A stretch of DNA of 64,000 nucleotides, taken from positions 751,893 through 815,892 of the forward strand of contig OY970126.1 of NCBI GenBank assembly GCA_963705915.1. Reading direction: 5' to 3'. This document shows positions 6,291 through 64,000 of the stretch, piece after piece. Every line of letters starts with the position of its first letter. Position 1 is the stretch's first letter. The position numbers were made by a program, and so were the translations under genes. This stretch comes from an uncultured bacterium. GTDB lineage: Bacteria > Patescibacteriota > Minisyncoccia > UBA6257 > 2-01-FULL-56-20. The notes beneath the pieces are model-generated. The model worked only from the letters and a program-made list of their open reading frames with translations, ran no database searches and had not been told where the DNA came from.

Positions 6291-7143
6291 AAAAGACTCA
6301 AAAAAACCAGTTGTAAGCATTCTCATGCCGACCTATAACCGGGTCGGTTTACTCGAGCGTTCCATAAAGAGCATTCTCTCGCAATCGCTTAACGACTTTG
6401 AGCTCATCATCATAAACGATGCGTCAACCGACGGCACGAAGGCATTTCTTGATGTGCTTGCCGCACGCGATCATCGTATCCATCCAATCCATAACGTAAA
6501 GAACAATTATCCCGATATTTCAAAAACATTGAATGAAGCGATGGCACAGGCCCGCGGCACCTACATCGCCCGCATCGACGACGACGACTATTGGTGTGAC
6601 GATGACAAGCTCAAGAAACAAGTTGAATTTCTCGACACGCATCCTGATTACGTCGTTGTCGGCGGGGGGACAATCGTGATCGATGAACATGACGAGGAAC
6701 GGTTCCGCTATCTCAAGCTTGAAACCGACGAGGCCATCCGCAGCAAAATATTCTTTGCGAATCCATTCACGCACTCAACGGTGATGTTTCGCCGAAAGAT
6801 CGCAGAGGCCGTCGGCGGCTATGGCAACTTTAAGAATGCCGAGGACTGGGAACTGTGGCTCAACATGGGCCTGCACGGAAAGTTTTATAACTTTCAGGAA
6901 TATTTCGTGCGCTATCTTCTCACATCGCAGAGCAAAACATTTCTTTTCAAGCGATCGCAGTCGCGGGAAATTTTGCGCATCATTGCCGCGCATCGCGGCG
7001 AATACCCCAATTTCATTCCTGGCTATCTTTTGAACGTCGCGCAGTATTGCTACAGCTTGCTTCCGGACGGCATCCGCGGCGCACTCTACAACACGCTTTC
7101 CCGTGCCAAGCGTACGGCGTTTTCGTCTAAATCAACCCAATGA
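6259..7143 (+). CDS. family 2 glycosyltransferase
   Basis: VSILMPTYNRVGLLERSIKSILSQS..ELIIINDASTDGT; start may be the internal Met at 6277. Confidence 0.8.
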   Translation: MSGSRNMSDFKKDSKKPVVSILMPTYNRVGLLERSIKSILSQSLNDFELIIINDASTDGTKAFLDVLAARDHRIHPIHNVKNNYPDISKTLNEAMAQARGTYIARIDDDDYWCDDDKLKKQVEFLDTHPDYVVVGGGTIVIDEHDEERFRYLKLETDEAIRSKIFFANPFTHSTVMFRRKIAEAVGGYGNFKNAEDWELWLNMGLHGKFYNFQEYFVRYLLTSQSKTFLFKRSQSREILRIIAAHRGEYPNFIPGYLLNVAQYCYSLLPDGIRGALYNTLSRAKRTAFSSKSTQ

Positions 7144-27818: not shown

Positions 27819-27905
27819 GGAGAGGTGCGCGAGCGGCTGAAACGGCGATCCTGGAAAGATCGTGTGTCAGAAATGGCACCGAGGGTTCGAATCCCTCCCT
27901 CTCCG
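27819..27905 (+). tRNA. tRNA-Ser (anticodon GGA), class II with long variable arm
   Basis: Acceptor GGAGAGG/CCTCTCC, anticodon stem CGATC/GATCG with loop CTGGAAA, T-arm GAGGG-TTCGAAT-CCCTC; no encoded CCA. Confidence 0.85.
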
Positions 27906-28043
27906 CGTCAAGTATGTTGGGCAAATTCTCGTAAGTCTCATTTTAGCTGATTAATTTCAGGGTCGACTTTCTCGTCAAGGTTGATAAAGTGGCATCGAAT
28001 AAAATATCCCCACGATTTCTCGTGGGGATTCAACTTTTAATTC

Positions 28044-28337
28044 TTAACCGTGAAGGATTGCCTCCTTGTGGGTCACTTCTCCCACGGGTCGAGCCGCCGC
28101 GTCACGATGCATGGCTCGGTAGCGAGTTTCAGCTACGCATTCGGGGCAGGTGACCGTGATGTCGCTCTGGAGGAGGATGTCTCCGGTCGGTTGCCCACAT
28201 GCAGTCACTCGTGCAAAAAGAAAACCAAGATGGATGAAGTCATTGTCTTTCGGAAAGGAAGTGCAGCCAATGACGCCATCGGGCAAGTTGTTAAACGTAA
28301 TCGTTTCTTTTTTCGGGATTCCTACCTGACTAGCCAT
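28044..28337 (-). CDS. small zinc-ribbon-like protein (97 aa; C..C ... CPEC)
   Basis: GGAGGT Shine-Dalgarno 8 nt upstream; own promoter TTGCCT-17-TATAGT abutting repeat copy 1; hairpin terminator at 27998-28020. Confidence 0.5.
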   Translation of the reverse strand: MASQVGIPKKETITFNNLPDGVIGCTSFPKDNDFIHLGFLFARVTACGQPTGDILLQSDITVTCPECVAETRYRAMHRDAAARPVGEVTHKEAILHG

Positions 28338-28407
28338 GTCCGCTTACCTCCGCTTCGATTTTGGAAAACTAAAAATACTATAGGCTAGCCCCATGAGAAA
28401 GGCAACA

Positions 28408-28435
28408 GGTTCGAATATCGTCCACGAGCCCCCGC
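28408..28435 (+). repeat. direct repeat copy 1 (GGTTCGAATATCGTCCACGAGCCCCCGC)
   Basis: Member of a 5-copy family with consensus GGTTCGAACATCGTCCACGAGCCCCGCC. Confidence 0.8.
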
Positions 28436-28619
28436 AAATAAGTTAGTGAAAAATAAAAGCCGCCAGAATATTGTGGAGTCAAATCTGCATATTGCAGCAG
28501 GTATCTTATCCACTCTGGCGGGGCCGCAACGCGTCTGCTCGCGAGACAGACTGCAAAGGATGGGGCCGGTTTCCTCGCCGTCATTGAGAAAATAACAGAG
28601 TTAAATGGCTTTAGCAACC

Positions 28620-28647
28620 GGTTCGAACATCGTCCACGAGCCCCGCC
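28620..28647 (+). repeat. direct repeat copy 2 (GGTTCGAACATCGTCCACGAGCCCCGCC)
   Basis: Followed 5 nt later by TTGACA (28653-28658), 16-nt spacer, TATAAT (28675-28680). Confidence 0.8.
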
Positions 28648-28706
28648 AGAGATTGACATAAGTTATTTTACTGGTATAATTATGCCAGCAAGCGAAGGAG
28701 ATTCTT

Positions 28707-28904
28707 ATGTTGCTTGACGGACTTGCGATCGCTTTGATGCTTTTCGCACTGCAAGAGTTTGTGCATTCAGCAATTGCCGGATGGCATGCTTCTGTCGAAG
28801 CGGATTGCAGAATCCCAAGACAGTTTGTTGTAAAATGTGCCGTTTTCTGCGCCTACGGCATGATGTTCTCGGTTTTTCTCCACCACTTTAACTTTCTGCA
28901 TTGA
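28707..28904 (+). CDS. small hydrophobic protein (65 aa, two predicted TM segments)
   Basis: Consensus promoter, GAAGGAG Shine-Dalgarno 6 nt upstream, GC hairpin plus T-run terminator at 28931-28965. Confidence 0.5.
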   Translation: MLLDGLAIALMLFALQEFVHSAIAGWHASVEADCRIPRQFVVKCAVFCAYGMMFSVFLHHFNFLH

Positions 28905-28998
28905 GAGGAAGTAAAACTCACAGAAATTAGGCCGCCGACTTTACATCGAGCGGCTTTTTCTTTTCAGTGCTTTATGGTCACGTTACCTCGCAATTTTA

Positions 28999-29017
28999 TT
29001 CGAACATCATCCACGAG
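28999..29017 (+). repeat. direct repeat copy 3 (degenerate: TTCGAACATCATCCACGAG)
   Basis: Shares the GTTCGAACATC.TCCACGAG core. Confidence 0.65.
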
Positions 29018-29079
29018 TTCCGATGCTTTAAACGAAAAATCGGTCATCCGAAATGGACGACCGATGGCAGCCCTTCTTT

Positions 29080-29331
29080 TTATATATTGTGTCCAATCTT
29101 GAGAATCGACTCGGGGCGTTCTCGAAAAGCGTGTTTGAGAACACGAATGATCTCGCACTGGGCTTCGAGCGGGTGGGGTTTGCCGTTGACAGCGACAGCA
29201 ATCTCTTCATCCTTATTGTGCGGAATAAGAATGAGTGTAGATTGCCGACCAGTGAAGCGTTCAAATTCGCATAGTTCGTCAATGAGCCTCGAGAAAGCCT
29301 GGTCGCAGTCGGGGTCAATATGACTTGGCAT
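29080..29331 (-). CDS. hypothetical 83-aa protein
   Basis: GGAGGT Shine-Dalgarno 7 nt upstream; promoter TTGACT-16-TATCTT (minus strand) abutting repeat copy 4; minus-strand terminator hairpin at 29039-29065. Confidence 0.5.
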   Translation of the reverse strand: MPSHIDPDCDQAFSRLIDELCEFERFTGRQSTLILIPHNKDEEIAVAVNGKPHPLEAQCEIIRVLKHAFRERPESILKIGHNI

Positions 29332-29380
29332 AAAATACCTCCTGCGCCTAAGATATCAGAACCGTTCGCGAAGTCAATAC

Positions 29381-29408
29381 GGTTCGAACATCATCCACGA
29401 GTCCCCGC
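29381..29408 (+). repeat. direct repeat copy 4 (GGTTCGAACATCATCCACGAGTCCCCGC)
   Basis: Its left edge is 3 nt from the -35 (TTGACT, minus strand) of the 29080..29331 gene. Confidence 0.8.
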
Positions 29409-29539
29409 ATTAAGTAGGATGGAGGATTCTCAACAGGAGCATTGTGATTGACTCCTTTCAATCTTGGCCCGCCATCAAGGTTGATGGAATTTTGAGCAGA
29501 TAAAAAAGTGGGCATCCAATGGATGCCCTGACACTTTGA

Positions 29540-29689
29540 TCAGTGAGTCGATGCAGTACGCAAGAACTCGGCGGTTGTTTTCGTAAGAAGGTCGATCCGG
29601 CCGCTAGAGACGAGAAATAGTTGTTGGTAAAGATCGTCACTCAGCAGTGACGGATCAATGTCGTCGATGGTTTTTTCTGCGCCTTCCAT
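29540..29689 (-). CDS. hypothetical 49-aa protein (MEGAEKTIDDIDPSLLSDDLYQQLFLVSSGRIDLLTKTTAEFLRTASTH)
   Basis: Below the ORF-track length cutoff; GGGGAGG Shine-Dalgarno 5 nt upstream, promoter TTGCAA-17-TATCAT, perfect 8-3-8 hairpin plus T-run terminator at 29501-29528. Confidence 0.35.
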   Translation of the reverse strand: MEGAEKTIDDIDPSLLSDDLYQQLFLVSSGRIDLLTKTTAEFLRTASTH

Positions 29690-29751
29690 AATGCCTCCCC
29701 AAACTACTCAGATGATAGTTCTGTTAGTTACCATTTGCAACTATCGCAAAC

Positions 29752-29780
29752 GGTTCGAACATCGTCCACGAGCGCCCGCC
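29752..29780 (+). repeat. direct repeat copy 5 (GGTTCGAACATCGTCCACGAGCGCCCGCC)
   Basis: Followed 4 nt later by TTGACA (29785-29790), 17-nt spacer, TATTCT. Confidence 0.8.
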
Positions 29781-29892
29781 AATATTGACACAAACCATTT
29801 TTAATGGTATTCTGTACACGTTCTTTGAAAGCTAATTTAAAGCACGACCCCGTTCTTCGCCGAACATTGTCGTGCAGAAAAGGATAACAACC

Positions 29893-30501
29893 ATGAGCGA
29901 ACTCATGCTCGATGTTGGCCAAGCAAATGAATTGAAGCTCGCGTTTCGCAGGGCGGGTTATTCAAATGCTGATATCAAACGTCTCTGCGAAGAAGTGACG
30001 CTCGCGGACTTTCGTAAAGTACTTTACGGACTCGCCGAAATCAACCCCCTGACGCATGTCATTGATTGCGATGCGTTTCCTTGTGAGTATGATTGCTGGG
30101 ATTTGGTGTCCCATCAAAAGGGAGGCTCCCTGACATGGGACTCAAAACGCTTTTCCCTTTTCGTTCACGAACTTCAGCAAAAAGGAAATACTCTCGACGG
30201 CTATGCAATTCGCGGCAGCCTAAAGAATACGGCCGGAAAGATAGTTTTGAATGCCAACGTTCTTGACTATCTTCTCATGCATCCACGTCTCATACCCGAT
30301 GAGTGGAAAGAGAGAGTGAACAACGAGCCTCTACGTGTTTTTTTCTGGGGGACCATTTATTGTCTCAAAGATTCCACCGTAAGCCCACACTATGTGCGTT
30401 GCTTGCTTTGGTCCCAGAGTGATCGTGAATGGGCAGGGGATTATCGCCGACTTGATAAACAATGGAGCGAGCGTGATCCCGCAGCCCTATGGTCGGAGTA
30501 G
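29893..30501 (+). CDS. hypothetical protein (about 203 aa), last cassette of the repeat array
   Basis: AAGGA Shine-Dalgarno before the internal Met at 29893 (the ORF-track GTG start at 29872 is also possible); imperfect hairpin plus T-run at 30513-30545. Confidence 0.5.
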   Translation: MSELMLDVGQANELKLAFRRAGYSNADIKRLCEEVTLADFRKVLYGLAEINPLTHVIDCDAFPCEYDCWDLVSHQKGGSLTWDSKRFSLFVHELQQKGNTLDGYAIRGSLKNTAGKIVLNANVLDYLLMHPRLIPDEWKERVNNEPLRVFFWGTIYCLKDSTVSPHYVRCLLWSQSDREWAGDYRRLDKQWSERDPAALWSE

Positions 30502-53303: not shown

Positions 53304-54287
53304 ATGGATAATGAACGAATTCGTTTTCCCCGCGGTGGACAAAAAAGATTTTTGGATCAGGCAATAGCGCGTGCTTCCGGAGTGGATAAACTCGCGCAAT
53401 TTTTATCGGTTTCATCCCGAACCGTGCGGGATTGGAGACGAGAGAAATTTCTTATGGCTTATGAGGCGGCATCGATAACGGCGTTGATGTACGAACTTGA
53501 GATGCCTGATGGGGTGAGGCGCGAAACGGCTTACTGGAATGTTTCTAACGCTGGCAGAACAGGTGGCCCCGCCTCATATAAGAAGCAAAAAGGAATTATT
53601 GGCGACCCTTTATTGAGAAAGCAGAGATGGCATGAATGGTGGGAGTTAAACAAGCACCGCAGTCATTTTCCATGCCATCAATTGCCTTTCCATGAGCCTG
53701 ACCTATCAGTTCTCTTGGCTGAATTTATAGGTATCATGATGGGGGATGGAGGCATGACTGCCAGACAATTCACAATAAGCCTGCATCATATAGATGATCT
53801 TGCTTACAGTAAATTTGTTACTGCTTTGATTGAGCAGCTTTTTCATATTGCTCCTTCAATTCGCCATATACCAAAAAATTCAGTGAATATAATAGTAGTT
53901 TCTCGAACGAAATTAATGCATTATTTGCATGGACTTGGATTGCCTCTTGGGAATAAAGTAAAACAAAATTTTACTATTCCCCAGTGGATACAAGAGAACG
54001 AAGAATTTATGGCTGGGTGCGTCCGTGGGCTCGTCGATACCGATGGAAGTATTTTCAATCATGAATATGCGTCGAATGGAAAGCAGTATTCATATAAGAA
54101 GCTTTCATTTTCATCCGCATCGCTGCCACTTCGAGAGGTCGTACAACTGTTTCTAGAAAATCATGGTTTTCATGCGCGTTTTACACGAGGTATAGAAATT
54201 CGTCTTGAAAGCAAAAAGGATATGGAACACTATATGAAGTTCATTGGCTCACATAATCCAAAGCACTTGAACAGATATTATAACTAG
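53304..54287 (+). CDS. free-standing double-motif LAGLIDADG homing endonuclease with N-terminal HTH region
   Basis: Two LAGLIDADG motifs (LAEFIGIMMGDGG and MAGCVRGLVDTDGS); 327 aa; lower-GC codon usage. Confidence 0.8.
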   Translation: MDNERIRFPRGGQKRFLDQAIARASGVDKLAQFLSVSSRTVRDWRREKFLMAYEAASITALMYELEMPDGVRRETAYWNVSNAGRTGGPASYKKQKGIIGDPLLRKQRWHEWWELNKHRSHFPCHQLPFHEPDLSVLLAEFIGIMMGDGGMTARQFTISLHHIDDLAYSKFVTALIEQLFHIAPSIRHIPKNSVNIIVVSRTKLMHYLHGLGLPLGNKVKQNFTIPQWIQENEEFMAGCVRGLVDTDGSIFNHEYASNGKQYSYKKLSFSSASLPLREVVQLFLENHGFHARFTRGIEIRLESKKDMEHYMKFIGSHNPKHLNRYYN

Positions 54288-54316: not shown

Positions 54317-54403
54317 GGAGACGTGGGTGAGTGGCTTAAACCAAATTCCTGCTAAGAATTTAGGGGAGAAATCCCCTCGAAGGTTCGAATCCTTCCGTCT
54401 CCG
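54317..54403 (+). tRNA. tRNA-Ser (anticodon GCU), class II
   Basis: Acceptor GGAGACG/CGTCTCC, anticodon stem AATTC/GAATT with loop CTGCTAA, long variable arm, T-arm GAAGG-TTCGAAT-CCTTC. Confidence 0.85.
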
Positions 54404-59740: not shown

Positions 59741-62700
59741 ATGCATAAAGTTCTTTCTCCCCTCAGCGGAGATGCTAAGAAAGTGTTTGTTGTATTCTTT
59801 TTCGCAACTTTTGTCTCAGGAGTGTTTTATTTTGGTTTATCTACAAGGCAGGTCTTCGCCTCATCGTATGCCTATTACCGTTCTATCACGGTCACCTCGA
59901 CTTCTTCAATCGCCTCAGGAACGCTGACAAATTTTCCGATACTTGTATCGTCGACCTTGTCCTCATGGGAACCCGTGAGCGATGGGGGCAAGATACAGCA
60001 TCTCACGACAGCTCCGAACGGGGGACAAGAACCTGCTGATCTTGTCTTTGCAACATCTTCTGCGAACTGCGGCACAGCGAATCTCAATTTCGAAACGGAG
60101 TCTTATACTTCGAGCACTGGCGCATTGGTAGATTGGGTTAATGTTCCCACGATGGAGATGGGAACGGTCATTTATGCCTGCTATGGCAATACTTCAGTCG
60201 CAACCGATCAGTCTCATCCAAGTTCGACGTGGAATAGCAATTATGCAGCGGTATATCACCTCGGCGACAATCCTCCGACAACCATACACGATAGCACGAG
60301 CCACGGGGATAATCTCGGGGTTGGTGGAGGTTCTACCGCGCAGTTCGCAGGTGAGATAGATGGTGCCATCAATTTTCCGAACGCGAGCCAATATGGTGGT
60401 ATTTACGCAAGTAGTACTCAGGCATCCGGTGGAGGGACGGGGAATTTTACCATTTCCACATGGGTCAACTTCAATGCTTTCTTCTCAGCATACGACGGAT
60501 TAGGTGGGGCCATCTTTGAAGTAGCGTCAGGCACCTATCCTTATTACGAAAAAGCACTCGTTTTGACCGGCACATCTACGCCTCAAATTAGTTTTTATGT
60601 GGTTCCCTCTAGTGGAAGTGGGTTTACGATGAATAGTCCAGCCGCTGTCGCGACCGGCACGTGGTACTACCTCACAGGAACATTAAATGGCACGACGGCT
60701 TCGTTATACGTGAATGGCGTTTTTGCCACATCCACTACTATATCCGGTTCTTTTATGGATTCGCCTATCTGCATGGTTCCCTACAACGTTTGCGGTAGCG
60801 GCAATTATACTCGTTCTGTTGATGCCGCCGTAGATGAAAGTCGTGTTTCAAATATTGCCCTTTCACCCTCATGGATTCTCACGGAATACAACAACCAATC
60901 AAGCCCCTCAACGTTCTATACCATGGGAAATGAAACGATCAACAACGCCGGACCTCCGTCGGTCTCCTGGATTTCCCCCGCTAACAACGCTTCAGTATCT
61001 TCCACGATCACGCTTACCGCATCGTCGACCGACAACACGCTCGTTTCAAGCACTGCCTTCTACGAGGGGACTTATGGTTCAAGTCTTGCTTCGAGCACTC
61101 TTATCGGAGCTACAAGCACCGCGAGCGGAACGCTCTATTCCGTGCCTTGGAACACAGGCTTGGTCGCGAACGGCTCGACGACTCTCTGGGCTCTTGCAAC
61201 CGATATCGCAAACAACACTTCTAGCGCGTCAACCACGGTGAATGTGACGAACACGCTCGCGATTACGAACACCACGGCGACGACCATCACGTACTCAGGC
61301 GCCACGATCACCTGGATGACGAATCTCGCGGCGTCCTCGACGGTAAACTACGGCCTGACCTCTGCCTACGGCTCTTCGACGGGGAGCTCGACTCTCGTCA
61401 CGAATCACTCTATAGCACTCATTGGTTTGGCGGCGTCGACCACCTATCATTATCAAGCTCTTTCGACCACCGGAGGAGGAAGTATAGCGACCTCTACTGA
61501 TGCAACGTTCACGACGGGCATCTCTCCCGGAACGCCGGGCACTCCATCCTTTTCTTCGGTCGGTTCAAGCACGCTCACTGTTTCGTGGACGTCCGCTTCG
61601 TCAACGAATTTCTATAGTATCGATCGCGCTACTTCCAGCCAGATCTATGCGCAAATAGCGACGACCACATTCCTTTCTTATAATGATTCGGGCCTCACGG
61701 GGAACACCCTCTATTTTTATGAGATCACCGGTGTAAATTCGAGCGGTGATGGCCCCGCGAGTGCGAGCTCTAGCGAGCTTACGCTTCCTGCGGCACCCGG
61801 AGCGCCCACCTATACGGATATCGGATCTTCTACCATTACGGTGAATTGGACTGCTCCCGCGGGAGCCGCTGCTTTTTATGAATTGGAAAGAGCTACCTCG
61901 TCAGCCGTTTTCACCCAAATAGGCACGACAACATCTCTTTTCTATGAGGACGCAGGACTCGCCACAGGCACTACGTATCTCTATCGTCTAAGAGCGGCAA
62001 ATGCGACGGGTAGCGGAGATTACAGCGCTTCATCCTCGGTAACGACGGTTTCCGGCGTGGGTCCCTATATGGCCCGCACTGATACCAACGCGCAACCCTA
62101 TCCATCGTCCATTCCTTGTCCGGCTTCATCCGCGCAATCTCAACCCGATGGTTCGATGGGATGCGCGAACGGAGGGGCGTTGTATGGATCAAATTACTAT
62201 TTCACCCCGTCCGATTTTCCTACGACGCCGATCTTGCGGGTCACGGACGTCAGTACGCCGACTACAAACAGCGGAAAGAGTTTTTTTACCGATTGCGGCG
62301 GTTCGGCAGAGACCAACATCATGGATTCATCCGACAATATTTTCTATATTTGCGATAGCGGTTCCGCGATTCGGATCATGACATTCAATTCGAGCACGCC
62401 AAGCGTTTCGCTCCGTTACAATTCATACATATTGCCCGATTGCGGCAGCGGCACCGGCAACATAGGGAATCTGTTTTTCAGTTTCACGCGTCCTCTCATA
62501 GGATATGCATCCTGTTTCAATAGCAGCGGCGATCCCATAATCGCGCAATTGAATTTTACGAGTACGAGTACCGGCCCAACGGTTGCGAATGGCGGAATCA
62601 CCACGGTCGTCGATTTGTCCAACTGCGTAGGCGCTCTCGCCGGAGTTGGGCCATCTGCATATCTCGACGATGTAAGCGTGAGTGCCGACGATCAAACGTT

Positions 62701-64000
62701 CGCCGTCCTCGGAAGCACAACATCCGGGCAAGGATCGTCCGGCGCGATCTATGCTATTGTTTGGAACCGGACGCTGGGATGCCGGGTATGGGACGTGGGA
62801 ACAAATGTGGTCAGTGGCAGCTACGGAGGCTCTTCCACGGGAGCGGTATCGTTCACCTCTGACGGCGTAACCCCGGTCGCCACTTCGACGTTCACACTGC
62901 ATAATGTCAGATTGGGCAAAGGCGGCACGTGGGTCAAGGTGGGTTGCTCAAGCTGCTCCGCTGCAAATTTCCTTTGGCAGATCAATACCACAAATGTTTA
63001 CGAGCAATGGAATGATGCAACCTATGCATGCGGCCACACTGCGGTCGGTTCATCGCTTACCGTAAACACCTGTGACGCTCTAGGGCATTATCAGAATGAT
63101 TTTTCTCGCCCAAACAACAATCCCGGCGATTACACCAGCCTGCCGTCCTCGTTCCCGCCGCAAGTGAGTGGTCCTTGGGATAGCCATCTATCATGGAACA
63201 ACGATAATGCGAGCGACACCGCTCCGTTTTTGATGACGCCCGACAATGGACAATTTGCTCCCGTTGAAGCGTGGGACAACGAGATACTTGGAATTTCGAC
63301 CGATGGCAGCGGCCAAGTTTACCGCTTTGCGCACACCTATGGCACCAATCTCTCCGAGTTTTTCGACGCCAACAATGAAATTGGGGACGTCTCCGCCGAC
63401 GGCAAATATTATCTTTGGACAACCGATTGGGATGGGATGCTCGGCAATATCAACGGAACCTCGTCGTCGTGCACGATCGGCACGGATTGTCGAGCCGACG
63501 TTTTTCTTGCCGTCCTGCCCCTTGCGAGCGACACGACCCCTCCTTCCGTACCAACCGATCTCGTGGCGACGGCAGTATCGACAAGCGAGATCGATTTATC
63601 GTGGGCTTCAAGCACCGATAACGTTGGCGTCGCAGGCTATGACATTTACCGCGACGGTGTAAATATTGCGACAACAACATCTCTTGCGTATGCCGACACG
63701 GGTCTCTCGGCGGATACCTCCTACAGCTATAACGTAGACGCCTTTGACCAAGCAGGTAATGTGTCGGGAGAGAGTTCTTCAACTTCAGCGACCACGGAGT
63801 CAGTAAGTGGCGGTGGAGGAGGCGGCGGTGGCGGCAGCAGCGGCGGAGGCGGTGGTGGCGGTGGCGGTGGTGGGGGATCGTATTATAGTCCTCCTGCGCC
63901 AACATCGACTGTTGTGGCAAGCTCCTCGACTCCAATCCAAGCGCTCCTCGCTGAACTTGAGGTTCTGATAAAAGAGCTGAACGATCAACTGGTCACAAGC
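59741..64000 (+). CDS. giant secreted/cell-surface protein (>1,419 aa; 3' end lies outside the window) with LamG-like, Ig-like and multiple fibronectin-III-like domains and a poly-Gly linker
   Basis: Hand translation from the ATG at 59741 gives an uninterrupted frame to the window end (the track omits ORFs open at the window edge); N-terminal signal anchor; at least 4 FN3-like units; GGGGGGGGSSGGGGGGGGGGG tract near 63810-63870. Confidence 0.7.
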   Translation, partial: MHKVLSPLSGDAKKVFVVFFFATFVSGVFYFGLSTRQVFASSYAYYRSITVTSTSSIASGTLTNFPILVSSTLSSWEPVSDGGKIQHLTTAPNGGQEPADLVFATSSANCGTANLNFETESYTSSTGALVDWVNVPTMEMGTVIYACYGNTSVATDQSHPSSTWNSNYAAVYHLGDNPPTTIHDSTSHGDNLGVGGGSTAQFAGEIDGAINFPNASQYGGIYASSTQASGGGTGNFTISTWVNFNAFFSAYDGLGGAIFEVASGTYPYYEKALVLTGTSTPQISFYVVPSSGSGFTMNSPAAVATGTWYYLTGTLNGTTASLYVNGVFATSTTISGSFMDSPICMVPYNVCGSGNYTRSVDAAVDESRVSNIALSPSWILTEYNNQSSPSTFYTMGNETINNAGPPSVSWISPANNASVSSTITLTASSTDNTLVSSTAFYEGTYGSSLASSTLIGATSTASGTLYSVPWNTGLVANGSTTLWALATDIANNTSSASTTVNVTNTLAITNTTATTITYSGATITWMTNLAASSTVNYGLTSAYGSSTGSSTLVTNHSIALIGLAASTTYHYQALSTTGGGSIATSTDATFTTGISPGTPGTPSFSSVGSSTLTVSWTSASSTNFYSIDRATSSQIYAQIATTTFLSYNDSGLTGNTLYFYEITGVNSSGDGPASASSSELTLPAAPGAPTYTDIGSSTITVNWTAPAGAAAFYELERATSSAVFTQIGTTTSLFYEDAGLATGTTYLYRLRAANATGSGDYSASSSVTTVSGVGPYMARTDTNAQPYPSSIPCPASSAQSQPDGSMGCANGGALYGSNYYFTPSDFPTTPILRVTDVSTPTTNSGKSFFTDCGGSAETNIMDSSDNIFYICDSGSAIRIMTFNSSTPSVSLRYNSYILPDCGSGTGNIGNLFFSFTRPLIGYASCFNSSGDPIIAQLNFTSTSTGPTVANGGITTVVDLSNCVGALAGVGPSAYLDDVSVSADDQTFAVLGSTTSGQGSSGAIYAIVWNRTLGCRVWDVGTNVVSGSYGGSSTGAVSFTSDGVTPVATSTFTLHNVRLGKGGTWVKVGCSSCSAANFLWQINTTNVYEQWNDATYACGHTAVGSSLTVNTCDALGHYQNDFSRPNNNPGDYTSLPSSFPPQVSGPWDSHLSWNNDNASDTAPFLMTPDNGQFAPVEAWDNEILGISTDGSGQVYRFAHTYGTNLSEFFDANNEIGDVSADGKYYLWTTDWDGMLGNINGTSSSCTIGTDCRADVFLAVLPLASDTTPPSVPTDLVATAVSTSEIDLSWASSTDNVGVAGYDIYRDGVNIATTTSLAYADTGLSADTSYSYNVDAFDQAGNVSGESSSTSATTESVSGGGGGGGGGSSGGGGGGGGGGGGSYYSPPAPTSTVVASSSTPIQALLAELEVLIKELNDQLVTS

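What the first reader, a model, noticed from the sequence alone, without database searches (positions are those of the whole stretch)
27906..30501. tRNA-Ser-adjacent array of five ~28-bp direct repeats bounding autonomous small-gene cassettes
Directly 3' of tRNA-Ser(GGA), five copies of GGTTCGAACATCGTCCACGAGCCCCGCC occur at 28408, 28620, 28999, 29381 and 29752, with a palindromic GTTCGAAC core (GTTCGAAT in copy 1). The spacings are 212, 379, 382 and 371 bp. The segment has lower GC than its neighbours. Each inter-repeat unit is a self-contained cassette with a sigma70-like promoter, a Shine-Dalgarno sequence and an intrinsic terminator. The genes are tiny (49-97 aa), lie on either strand, and match no recognisable family. 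A 203-aa gene closes the array. The repeat edges abut outward-facing -35 hexamers. On the right side, copies 2 and 5 are followed 5 and 4 nt later by TTGACA. On the left side, copies 1 and 4 abut minus-strand TTGCCT and TTGACT 2-3 nt away. Each repeat is therefore positioned like a shared activator/operator site serving promoters in both directions, or like a cassette-boundary recombination site. Spacing and size exclude CRISPR. No integrase was found, so this is not a classical integron. The GGTTCGAA start resembles a tRNA T-arm, as expected for att cores of tRNA-targeting elements, but similarity to the neighbouring tRNA stops after 9 nt. The most economical reading is a tRNA-linked variable islet of repeat-delimited, individually promoted small genes of unknown function.
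Basis: seen in the sequence. Interest (0 to 1): 0.85.

Follow-up and report, generated by a model that had tools for sequence, protein, structure and literature searches.

The report
Serine-recombinase att sites bounding tRNA-linked micro-cassettes
The five 28-bp repeats next to tRNA-Ser are attachment-site halves of a very large family of serine-recombinase mobile elements that insert into tRNA gene ends in Patescibacteria, so the array looks like a stack of tiny recombinase-less gene cassettes captured at that tRNA.

Summary
Five same-strand copies of GGTTCGAAYATCRTCCACGAG plus a 7-nt GC-rich tail lie downstream of tRNA-Ser(GGA) and nowhere else in the window. The repeat is not a local oddity: the same 21-nt block recurs in other Patescibacteria loci, usually in arrays downstream of tRNA genes. 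Its tail copies the acceptor 3' end of the upstream tRNA exactly in L010, L018 and L028. In L018 it closes a 12-kb island whose other end is tRNA-Asp abutted by a large serine recombinase (LSR). In 5 of 5 loci examined, LSRs of this family (>5,500 members) overlap a tRNA 3' end. Un-split homologues encode ...RG-LVDDVRT..., which is what the window repeats encode on the minus strand. The repeat is therefore the P arm plus crossover region of the LSR attP, which lies inside the recombinase gene. It is 5 bp longer than the tRNA arm it replaces, as in known LSR attP/attB pairs. The window holds no recombinase. Its 212-384-bp units are best read as recombinase-less micro-cassettes stacked at the tRNA. 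The 203-aa gene is a resident DGR-target-type gene, not a cassette. Verdict: new variant of a known kind, comparable to SCC composite islands and tycheposon arrays.

The parts
27819..27906 (+). tRNA-Ser(GGA). Proposed integration target, with the B arm in its T-loop-to-acceptor 3' part.
   Evidence: ARAGORN and Rfam tRNA at 44 bits. GGTTCGA to the acceptor end spans 23 nt, against 28 nt in the repeats.
27907..28407 (-). Unit 1: 97-aa ORF (28044-28337), minus-strand promoter-like site (28405-28377) and terminator-like hairpin (28029-28006).
   Evidence: The protein has 3 relatives at 54-74% identity. One of them (L056) keeps the same promoter type but lies between tkt and pfkB, beside a degenerate site.
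28408..28435 (+). Repeat copy 1: GGTTCGAATATCGTCCACGAG + CCCCCGC.
   Evidence: The minus strand reads LRG-LVDDIRT.
28436..28619 (-). Unit 2: no convincing ORF. My reading of the sequence: a weak minus-strand promoter-like sequence next to copy 2 and a long hairpin plus T-run next to copy 1. Possibly a small RNA or a decayed unit.
   Evidence: My reading of the sequence and the ORF list. The consensus scan reported no promoter or terminator here. No Rfam match.
28620..28647 (+). Repeat copy 2: GGTTCGAACATCGTCCACGAG + CCCCGCC.
   Evidence: It is followed after 5 nt by TTGACA-16-TATAAT.
28648..28996 (+). Unit 3: consensus promoter-like site (28653-28680), 65-aa hydrophobic ORF (28707-28904) and terminator-like hairpin (~28931-28964).
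   Evidence: the hairpin is my reading. No family match.
28997..29024 (+). Repeat copy 3, degenerate: TATTCGAACATCATCCACGAG + TTCCGAT.
   Evidence: 3 mismatches in the 21-mer.
29025..29380 (-). Unit 4: 83-aa ORF (29080-29331), promoter-like site (29377-29350) and terminator-like hairpin (29065-29039).
   Evidence: The family has 107 cluster representatives, with invariant C21, E24, R29, P37 and G50. No Pfam or PDB match.
29381..29408 (+). Repeat copy 4: GGTTCGAACATCATCCACGAG + TCCCCGC. The tail matches the tRNA-Ser end TCTCCGC at 6 of 7 positions.
29409..29751 (-). Unit 5: 49-aa ORF (29540-29689), promoter-like site (29740-29712) and terminator-like hairpin (29528-29510).
   Evidence: No family match.
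29752..29779 (+). Repeat copy 5: GGTTCGAACATCGTCCACGAG + CGCCCGC. Distal junction of the array.
   Evidence: Copy 5 followed by TTGACA and the 203-aa gene mirrors tRNA end followed by TTGACA and a homologue in L038 and L041.
29785..30501 (+). Resident neighbour, not a cassette: promoter-like site (29785-29813), 5'-UTR hairpin (29843-29874) and a 203-aa gene (29893-30501) of a DGR-target-type family.

Best explanation
**What it is.** Each 28-bp repeat is the 'P' arm plus crossover region of the attachment site of a large-serine-recombinase (LSR) family. The integrative elements carrying these recombinases insert into the 3' ends of tRNA genes in Patescibacteria.

**How the site is built.** In the free element the attP lies inside the 3' end of the recombinase gene. 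The 21-nt block encodes ...LVDDVRT... on the opposite strand. The 7-nt tail corresponds to the tRNA acceptor 3' strand. Integration splits the gene: its body stays next to the tRNA (attL), where the ORF then ends in tRNA-encoded residues. The last ~25 codons, together with the P arm, are carried to the far end of the element (attR).

**What the window shows.** tRNA-Ser(GGA) is followed by five such P-arm/tail sites in the tRNA's orientation. They are separated by 212-384-bp units carrying their own promoter-like and terminator-like signals, and there is no recombinase.

**How the array formed (inferred).** Recombinase-less micro-cassettes, each with a minimal site, were inserted or accreted at the tRNA end by a recombinase supplied in trans. 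Either each new insertion pushed older ones outward, or they arrived as a composite. They now sit between the tRNA and its original neighbour, the 203-aa gene.

**Shown.**
- The identity of the site.
- Its link to the LSR family and to tRNA ends.
- The 5-bp arm-length offset.
- The existence of site-bounded cassettes on an LSR-bearing element.

**Inferred.**
- The position of the crossover.
- The order of events.
- Whether the window's cassettes can still move.
For: 1. The repeat is real and confined to the array.
2. The same 21-nt block occurs in other Patescibacteria and metagenome loci. It is often in same-orientation arrays and downstream of tRNA-Ser, tRNA-Asp or tRNA-Leu. Conservation is sharply limited to 28 bp.
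3. The tail equals the last 7 nt of the upstream tRNA in L010, L018 and L028.
4. MAFFT aligns the tRNA 3' end and the motif with a single 5-nt gap. The right flanks of the L018 motif, the L028 tRNA-Asp and the L028 motif are homologous, so the DNA beyond the motif is host DNA.
5. L018 reads tRNA-Asp, then a convergent LSR whose stop codon lies in the acceptor stem, then 12 kb, then the motif.
6. In 4 of 4 further LSR homologue loci the gene overlaps a convergent tRNA 3' end.
7. Most homologue C-termini are tRNA-encoded (..RRDLNPQPP). A minority end ..RG-LVDDV(R/G)T.IR...IP.L. Un-split genes in L054 and L055 contain the site plus tail in their 3' coding end.
8. Rejoining the L018 attL and attR gives a 560-aa ORF that aligns to its end with un-split homologues. 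The window repeats align on the RG-LVDDVRT block.
9. Core variants fall at codon positions 1/2/3 as 18/6/24, and a second subtype differs by a one-codon deletion.
10. The shared GGTTCGA block lies 5 bp further from the tail in the repeat than in the tRNA. This matches the 5-bp zinc-ribbon-motif shift between attP and attB half-sites of LI integrase (PMC3783163).
11. L054 carries a 2-kb AbiE/DUF3761 module between two copies of its own site on an LSR-bearing element. A relative of cassette 1 sits in a different genomic context beside a degenerate site.
12. Copy 5 followed by TTGACA and the 203-aa gene mirrors tRNA end followed by TTGACA and a homologue elsewhere.
Against: - No LSR or other recombinase was found in the 64-kb window. 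Activity here would need a recombinase encoded elsewhere or brought in.
- The window tails match the tRNA-Ser end only partly (6/7 at best).
- No significant recombinase-coding (P') remnant flanks the window repeats or the tRNA.
- Canonical LSRs do not recombine attP with attL or attR. Serial stacking therefore needs either relaxed B' recognition or composite transfer, and neither was tested.
- The distal motif was found in only 1 of 5 LSR islands clearly, plus 1 weakly. For the rest the 10-kb flank limit may be the cause.
- Copy 3, in the middle of the array, is the most decayed, so there is no simple age gradient.
- No strain-level presence/absence data could be obtained.
Confidence: 0.75

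Rival explanations
1. Inert fossils. The repeats are leftovers of full-size LSR elements that integrated one after another and were then almost wholly deleted. The small ORFs are surviving scraps, and nothing in the array is mobilisable or selected.
For: - No recombinase in the window.
- Copy 3 is decayed.
- Unit 2 has no ORF.
- L010 and L049 show strongly degenerate copies.
- Degenerated elements and partial tRNAs are reported for tycheposon islands.
Against: - Four of five copies keep 20-21 of 21 core positions, while everything outside the 28 bp is unrelated.
- The rest of the recombinase C-terminal tail, which flanks real attR sites in L018 and L054, is absent from all five. Five independent deletions ending exactly at the edge of the site seem unlikely.
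- Each unit is compact, with promoter-like and terminator-like signals.
- Two ORFs belong to conserved families.
- L054 shows a cassette riding on a live element.
Confidence: 0.17
2. Local amplification. One promoter-plus-site segment was duplicated in place by replication slippage or unequal crossing-over. The units diverged or were replaced afterwards, with no site-specific recombination.
For: Copies 2 and 5 share 61 nt, including the downstream TTGACA promoter region and 11 nt upstream (family D2).
Against: - The unit contents are unrelated and lie on both strands.
- The same 28-bp site bounds unrelated cassettes in many other genomes.
- Outside copies 2 and 5 the flanks are not similar.
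Confidence: 0.04
3. Shared operator or activator site. A DNA-binding regulator recognises the palindromic GTTCGAAC core and controls promoters on both sides.
For: Promoter-like -35 hexamers lie 2-5 nt from copies 1, 2, 4 and 5. L010 copies also precede TTGACA.
Against: - Apart from the 8-bp core the site is not symmetric.
- There is no conserved spacing to promoters across 24 copies, and terminators follow the site in L018, L020, L022, L024 and L028.
- The variation is codon-like.
- The site lies inside a recombinase ORF.
- The tail tracks the neighbouring tRNA.
- No regulator gene sits in the islet.
Confidence: 0.02
4. Integron-like system. The sites are attC-type sites of a tyrosine recombinase.
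For: An array of small cassettes bounded by a repeated site.
Against: - No IntI-like or any tyrosine recombinase in the 40 ORFs scanned.
- The 28-bp site has no attC-type imperfect palindrome.
- The cassettes have their own promoter-like sites and lie on both strands.
- The site is demonstrably part of an LSR gene and att site.
Confidence: 0.02

Closest known systems
Large serine integrase attP/attB architecture (Listeria A118-family LI integrase model; PMC3783163)
   Same: Short att sites. A shared outer recognition block sits 5 bp further from the centre in the element arm than in the host arm: here GGTTCGA lies 28 nt against 23 nt from the acceptor end. Integration yields hybrid attL and attR. 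The recombinase has Resolvase, Recombinase and zinc-ribbon domains.
   Different: The target is the 3' end of tRNA genes. The attP lies inside the recombinase's own coding region, so integration swaps its C-terminus. The crossover position and binding have not been determined here.
SCC/SCCmec composite islands in staphylococci (CcrAB/CcrC large serine recombinases; 10.64898/2026.03.31.715619, 10.1101/336396)
   Same: LSR-driven insertion at the 3' end of a conserved gene. Tandem or nested arrays are delimited by repeated att sequences and include units that lack a recombinase (Psi-SCC).
   Different: The target there is rlmH, not a tRNA. The host phylum and recombinase clade differ. SCC units are tens of kb, whereas the window's units are 0.2-0.4 kb. 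SCC recombinase genes are not reported to span the att site.
Tycheposons and tRNA-proximal islands of Prochlorococcus (10.1101/2020.12.28.424599)
   Same: tRNA-targeting integrative elements in streamlined genomes. Successive integrations push older elements outward. Degenerate remnants and partial-tRNA repeats are scattered through the island. A minority use a large serine recombinase.
   Different: Most tycheposons use tyrosine recombinases, and their repeats are true partial tRNAs. Here the repeat is a chimeric, 5-nt-longer pseudo-3'-end that is also recombinase coding sequence, and the units are far smaller.
Integron gene-cassette arrays
   Same: It works alike at the level of outcome: a stack of small, mostly unknown-function genes, each bounded by one recombination site, next to a fixed primary site.
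   Different: There is no IntI and no attC secondary structure. The cassettes carry their own promoter-like sites and lie on either strand. The recombinase class is serine rather than tyrosine.
Integration-dependent immunity of cluster G/N/P mycobacteriophages (attP inside a gene, so that integration changes the protein's C-terminus; mentioned in PMC9635641 and PMC9262239; mechanism recalled from my own knowledge)
   Same: The att site lies within a coding region, so the integrated and free forms encode proteins with different C-termini.
   Different: There the split gene is the repressor and the integrase is a tyrosine recombinase. Here the split gene is the serine recombinase itself. Any regulatory consequence is untested.

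Membership tests
Large-serine-recombinase att site (attR/attP P arm) | A large serine recombinase gene (Resolvase + Recombinase + Zn-ribbon) is associated with the site. | tested here: met
   Met in related loci. L018 has an LSR at the tRNA-proximal end of an island whose distal end is the motif. L054 and L055 have the site inside the LSR gene. It is not met in the window itself, where no recombinase was found in 64 kb.
Large-serine-recombinase att site (attR/attP P arm) | Hybrid junction: an element-derived arm joined to host DNA that normally follows the target. | tested here: met
   The right flank of the L018 motif is homologous to the DNA following the unoccupied tRNA-Asp in L028. The tail equals the tRNA acceptor end in L010, L018 and L028. 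In the window, copy 5 plus promoter plus 203-aa gene mirrors tRNA plus promoter plus homologue, but the tails match the tRNA-Ser end only partly.
Large-serine-recombinase att site (attR/attP P arm) | The outer recognition motif is displaced by about 5 bp between attP and attB half-sites. | tested here: met
   GGTTCGA to the acceptor end spans 23 nt in tRNA-Ser, tRNA-Asp and the L010 tRNA, and 28 nt in every motif copy. The literature value is 5 bp. That GGTTCGA is the zinc-ribbon-domain motif is inference.
Large-serine-recombinase att site (attR/attP P arm) | Recombination at a central dinucleotide, catalysed by the recombinase. | not testable with these tools
   This needs in vitro or in vivo recombination assays, or junction reads.
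Integron (IntI + attI + attC cassettes) | An IntI-type tyrosine recombinase next to the array. | tested here: not met
   No Phage_integrase family hit in 40 window ORFs.
Integron (IntI + attI + attC cassettes) | attC sites: 57-141-bp imperfect palindromes with R''/L''-L'/R' boxes. | tested here: not met
   The site is 28 bp, and no inverted-repeat arms were found around the copies. Only the 8-bp GTTCGAAC is self-complementary.
Integron (IntI + attI + attC cassettes) | Mostly promoterless cassettes in one orientation, expressed from Pc. | tested here: not met
   The units have their own promoter-like sites and lie on both strands.
Tycheposon-like tRNA island | tRNA-adjacent elements flanked by partial-tRNA repeats, with tandem accretion. 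| tested here: inconclusive
   The array is tRNA-adjacent and stacked. The repeats are chimeric pseudo-3'-ends rather than true partial tRNAs. No integrase is present in the window. The tycheposon gene modules were not looked for.
SCC-type composite island | Ccr recombinases and the rlmH 3'-end target. | tested here: not met
   The target is a tRNA. No recombinase gene of any kind was found in the window. The associated LSRs seen in related loci sit against tRNA 3' ends; their relatedness to Ccr was not tested. It is an analogue, not a member.
CRISPR array | Repeats of 23-50 bp separated by spacers of similar, short length; often cas genes. | tested here: not met
   The spacings of 212-384 nt hold ORFs with promoter-like sites. 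No cas gene was detected in the window ORFs scanned against Pfam.
REP/MITE dispersed repeat | Many dispersed copies in intergenic regions, with hairpin or terminal inverted repeats. | tested here: not met
   All five window copies lie in one array and none elsewhere in 64 kb. There are no inverted arms.

The most novel reading that the evidence does not exclude
Patescibacteria may possess an integron-like gene-capture platform run by serine rather than tyrosine recombinases. In this reading, promoter-bearing micro-cassettes of only 0.2-2 kb each carry a minimal 28-bp P-arm site. They are stacked at tRNA 3' ends and shuttled as composites by LSR elements acting in trans. Because the recombinase gene spans its own attP, integration replaces its last ~25 residues with tRNA-encoded ones, which could act as a built-in switch of recombinase activity or directionality.
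Probability: 0.3. Interest if true: 0.8.

Novelty: new variant of a known kind. Interest (0 to 1): 0.6.

Why it matters
- **Annotation.** It turns an unexplained repeat into a usable marker. A 21-nt block plus an acceptor-like tail flags integration junctions of a very large tRNA-targeting serine-recombinase family (>5,500 members at E<=1e-30). These occur in Patescibacteria, a radiation with tiny genomes in which routes of gene flow are poorly known.
- **Gene flow.** If the micro-cassettes are mobilised in trans, these arrays would be a simple route by which small accessory genes (unknown-function proteins, toxin-antitoxin modules) are collected and exchanged.
- **Tools.** The family offers natural attP/attB pairs with a conserved element arm and tRNA-defined host arms. 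That may interest people who develop serine integrases as tools.
- **Recombinase biology.** A recombinase gene that changes its own C-terminus on integration is a testable candidate for a directionality or regulation mechanism.

Tried and rejected
- **Known RNA families.** Only the tRNA was found in the window. The ~150-nt element after the L028/L018 motif has no Rfam match.
- **A second islet after tRNA-Leu (59.7-64 kb).** This is one giant ORF, not an islet.
- **Strain comparison through identical HtpX.** Only a 1.4-kb contig could be read.
- **The 203-aa protein as candidate recombinase or regulator.** Rejected. Its contexts vary, the motif is absent from its other loci, and the L041 homologue is a DGR target with an adenine-specific VR/TR pair.
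- **P'-arm (recombinase-coding) remnants beside the window repeats and the tRNA.** My by-eye impression (FSLTYLRG, PSYLMRG) did not survive a window-wide six-frame score test; the ranks were 284-1889.
- **A GTCCA/TTGAC pseudo-dyad around the tail.** It is seen in L018 attL/attR and beside copies 2 and 5, but not in L054, L055 or most other copies, so it was not used.
- **Viral collection.** No exact core match and no close LSR relative.
- **Distal motif in the four extra LSR islands.** Only a 4-mismatch candidate in L049. The others may lie beyond the 10-kb flank.
- **Phage and defence libraries for the cassette proteins.** Nothing found.
- **Profile against PDB, and Pfam across the 83-aa family.** Nothing found.
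- **Literature.** No description was found of an LSR gene spanning attP at tRNA genes in CPR bacteria. Only open-access full text was searched.

Full report
Five direct copies of a 28-nt sequence lie on the + strand at 28408, 28620, 28997, 29381 and 29752, downstream of tRNA-Ser(GGA) (27819-27906). The 19-nt core TTCGAAYATCRTCCACGAG matches five times in the 64-kb window against 0.07 expected, and nowhere outside the array.
- Copy 3 is degenerate at both edges.
- Consensus scans place promoter-like sites right of copies 2 and 5 and left of copies 1 and 4. One more lies 12 nt left of copy 5. Terminator-like hairpins accompany the minus-strand units.
- The unit between copies 1 and 2 has no convincing ORF.
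- The GC dip is slight.
- No cassette ORF matches Pfam, PHROGs or PADLOC.
- The flanks are housekeeping genes: LemA-like and HtpX upstream, Fur downstream.

**2. The repeat is not a local oddity.** Exact-core scans gave 14 genome hits and 22 metagenome hits. Many are chance-level single hits. A coherent subset extends the motif in the same way as the window copies, with GG before the core and a GC-rich 7-nt tail after it.
- Several of these are arrays: L003 (Gracilibacteria chromosome, at least 5 copies), L010 (Paceibacteria), L016, L020, L023, L024, L026, L030 and L049.
- In the window, L010, L028, L030 and L031 the copies lie downstream of a tRNA gene (Ser, Asp, Leu) in the tRNA's orientation.
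- Across 24 copies from 15 sources, information content drops to background immediately outside the 28 bp.

**3. Anatomy of the repeat.** The repeat starts like a tRNA T-loop (GGTTCGAA), continues with a conserved 13 nt (CATCGTCCACGAG) and ends in a variable tail.
- The tail equals the last 7 nt (acceptor 3' strand plus discriminator) of the upstream tRNA in L010 (GCGGAGC) and in L018 and L028 (tRNA-Asp, CTCGCGC). It matches partly in L030 and in the window (copy 4 TCCCCGC against TCTCCGC).
- From GGTTCGA to the acceptor end is 23 nt in each tRNA and 28 nt in every repeat. MAFFT aligns the two with a single 5-nt gap.

**4. The link to a recombinase.** L018 is a 12-kb contig. One end is tRNA-Asp, abutted by a convergent 535-aa large serine recombinase (Resolvase, Recombinase and Zn_ribbon_recom domains) whose stop codon lies in the acceptor stem. 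The other end is the motif.
- The DNA beyond that motif is homologous to the DNA that follows the unoccupied tRNA-Asp in the related contig L028. It is therefore host DNA, as expected at attR.
- The recombinase family is very large, with 5,506 proteins at E<=1e-30 among the candidates scored.
- In all four further loci examined the gene overlaps a convergent tRNA 3' end: tRNA-Asp three times and tRNA-Val once.

**5. The repeat is recombinase coding sequence.**
- Most homologues end in ..RGRRDLNPQPPA or ..RDSNP. This is the reverse-strand translation of a tRNA T-arm, so these are integrated copies.
- A minority end ..LRP..RG-LVDDV(R/G)T.IR.....IP.L...
- On the minus strand the window repeats read LRG-LVDDIRT, LAG-LVDDVRT, SE-LVDDVRI, MRG-LVDDVRT and WRA-LVDDVRT.
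- Joining the L018 attL and attR halves yields a 560-aa ORF. Its tail (LRE-LVDDVRTRIRQHSGHIHIPALNRSP) aligns to the end with un-split homologues, and the window repeats align on the same block.
- Un-split genes on two ~25-kb contigs with conjugation-type genes (L054, L055) contain their own versions of the site plus an acceptor-like tail inside the 3' coding region.
- Variation among 18 distinct core variants falls at codon positions 1/2/3 as 18/6/24, and 22 of 42 changed codons are synonymous. A second subtype (GGTTCTAAC.TCGTCCAG) differs by one codon.

**6. Mechanism.** The attP of these elements lies within the recombinase gene. The 21-nt block is the element-side (P) arm. The tail is the short stretch shared with the tRNA end, where the crossover presumably occurs. 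After integration the tRNA is kept intact at attL and the P arm ends up at attR.
- The 5-bp length difference matches the published rule for large serine integrases. In attB half-sites the zinc-ribbon-domain motif is shifted 5 bp toward the centre relative to attP (positions 11-19 against 16-24) (PMC3783163).
- If the crossover is placed in the middle of the tail, GGTTCGAAC occupies positions 16-24 in the repeat and the same block occupies 11-19 in the tRNA. The crossover position is my inference, not a result.

**7. The array.** The window contains no recombinase. Forty ORFs were scanned against Pfam, and tblastn with the LSR found nothing.
- Each of the five sites is a minimal P arm plus tail. 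The remaining recombinase tail codons that flank genuine attR sites in L018 and L054 are absent. No significant P' remnant lies to the right of the sites.
- The outer edge of conservation lies about 24-25 bp from the inferred centre. This coincides with the outer limit of the LI attP half-site described in PMC3783163 (zinc-ribbon motif at positions 16-24). I take that as support for constraint on binding rather than mere decay.
- L054 shows that such units travel with live elements. Its site occurs twice. The left flanks are homologous and both encode the recombinase tail, the right flanks are unrelated, and an AbiE toxin-antitoxin/DUF3761 module lies between them. This is the structure expected if a tandem pair excised through its outermost sites.
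- The 97-aa cassette-1 protein has three relatives. One keeps the same promoter type but lies between tkt and pfkB, beside a degenerate site and a tRNA-3'-end-like fragment.
- The 83-aa cassette-4 protein belongs to a family with 107 cluster representatives.
- I therefore read the window's units as recombinase-less micro-cassettes accreted at tRNA-Ser.
- How accretion gets round the usual ban on attP x attL recombination is unresolved. The options are relaxed recognition of the non-conserved host arm, composite transfer, or later deletion.

**8. The 203-aa gene is a neighbour, not a cassette.**
- It belongs to a 601-member Patescibacteria family found in different neighbourhoods.
- In L038 and L041/L042 its TTGACA promoter starts right after a genuine tRNA end, just as it starts 4-5 nt after copy 5 here. 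The array thus sits between a tRNA and what looks like its original neighbour.
- In L041 the homologue has a template repeat with 13 differences, all at template adenines, next to bAvd and a reverse transcriptase. This is a DGR-target-type family. The window has no template repeat for it.

**9. Rivals.**
- An operator reading is contradicted by the lack of conserved spacing to promoters, by terminators following the site elsewhere, and by the coding-type variation.
- An integron reading fails each defining feature tested.
- Local duplication explains only the 61-nt similarity of copies 2 and 5.
- The serious rival is that the array is an inert fossil. I give it about one chance in six, for the reasons in paragraph 7.

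**10. Comparison and novelty.** In logic this resembles SCC composite islands and tycheposon islands.
- SCC composite islands are LSR-made tandem arrays at a conserved gene's 3' end and include recombinase-less units.
- Tycheposon islands show successive integrations at tRNAs in streamlined genomes, and a minority of the elements carry an LSR.
- This case differs in four ways. The target is a tRNA end used by an LSR. The repeat is chimeric and 5 nt longer, not a true partial tRNA. The attP lies inside the recombinase gene, so integration swaps its C-terminus. The units are very small.
- My searches of open-access text found no prior description of this in CPR bacteria, but that is not proof of absence.
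- I rate it a new variant of a known kind, with interest 0.6.

**11. Limits.**
- Recombination, crossover position and binding are untested.
- The source genome outside the window could not be read.
- No strain-level variation data were obtained.
- Only 5 LSR loci were inspected, and the distal motif was clear in just one of them.

Noticed in passing
[not shown]
   Followed up: partly
window 29843-29874; L038, L039 and L041 upstream of the homologous genes: A conserved 5'-UTR hairpin lies just before the Shine-Dalgarno of this family (CACGAC..GTTC....GAAC..GTCGTG). L038, L039 and L041 have a second long hairpin (ttgccatagcag...ctgctatggcaa) that the window lacks. This may be a cis-regulatory RNA.
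   Followed up: no
L028 3902-4080 and 4862-5040; L018 1-100 (minus strand): A ~150-nt element follows the terminator after tRNA-Asp and again after the motif. It ends in an exact copy of the last 15 nt of tRNA-Asp (CCCGTCACTCGCGCA), preceded by what looks like a tRNA-Asp 3' half that lacks the T-loop. It has no Rfam match.
   Followed up: partly
L028 6046-6295 and 2315-2517: A tRNA gene is interrupted in the anticodon loop by a long insert that looks like a group I intron (my reading of the sequence), with an HNH-type ORF downstream (6370-6850). Rfam reports an Intron_gpI match only for the separate site at 2315-2517.
   Followed up: no
L018 7064-7183: A LOOT RNA (RF03000, 75.9 bits, above the gathering score) lies inside the 12-kb LSR island.
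   Followed up: no
window 28436-28619: The 184-bp unit between copies 1 and 2 has no ORF with a ribosome-binding site. It has a minus-strand promoter-like sequence and a long hairpin followed by a T-run. It may be a small RNA or a decayed cassette.
   Followed up: no
window 53304-54287 and L038 8948-9649: A LAGLIDADG-like ORF sits immediately upstream of a tRNA gene in both the window (tRNA-Ser(gct) at 54317) and L038.
   Followed up: no
window 59743-64000: One very long ORF runs off the window end. It contains repeated ~90-aa modules and a Gly-rich GGCGGTGG-type stretch near 63806-63876, and is presumably a giant surface protein.
   Followed up: no
L056 8452-8680: A long inverted repeat (ccaagagggagatgaggctgcc ... 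ggcatcctcatctccctcttgg) and a tRNA-3'-end-like fragment (GTTCGAATCCTGCTCTGTGCACG) lie in the small islet that holds the cassette-1 homologue. ARAGORN finds no tRNA in this contig.
   Followed up: no
L031 1649-1664 (+ strand): A partial copy of the motif in inverted orientation (GACGATGTTCGAACC as read in the tRNA's orientation) lies about 90 nt downstream of tRNA-Ser(GGA). The full copy sits 1.4 kb further on. Its orientation is unexplained by the simple model.
   Followed up: no
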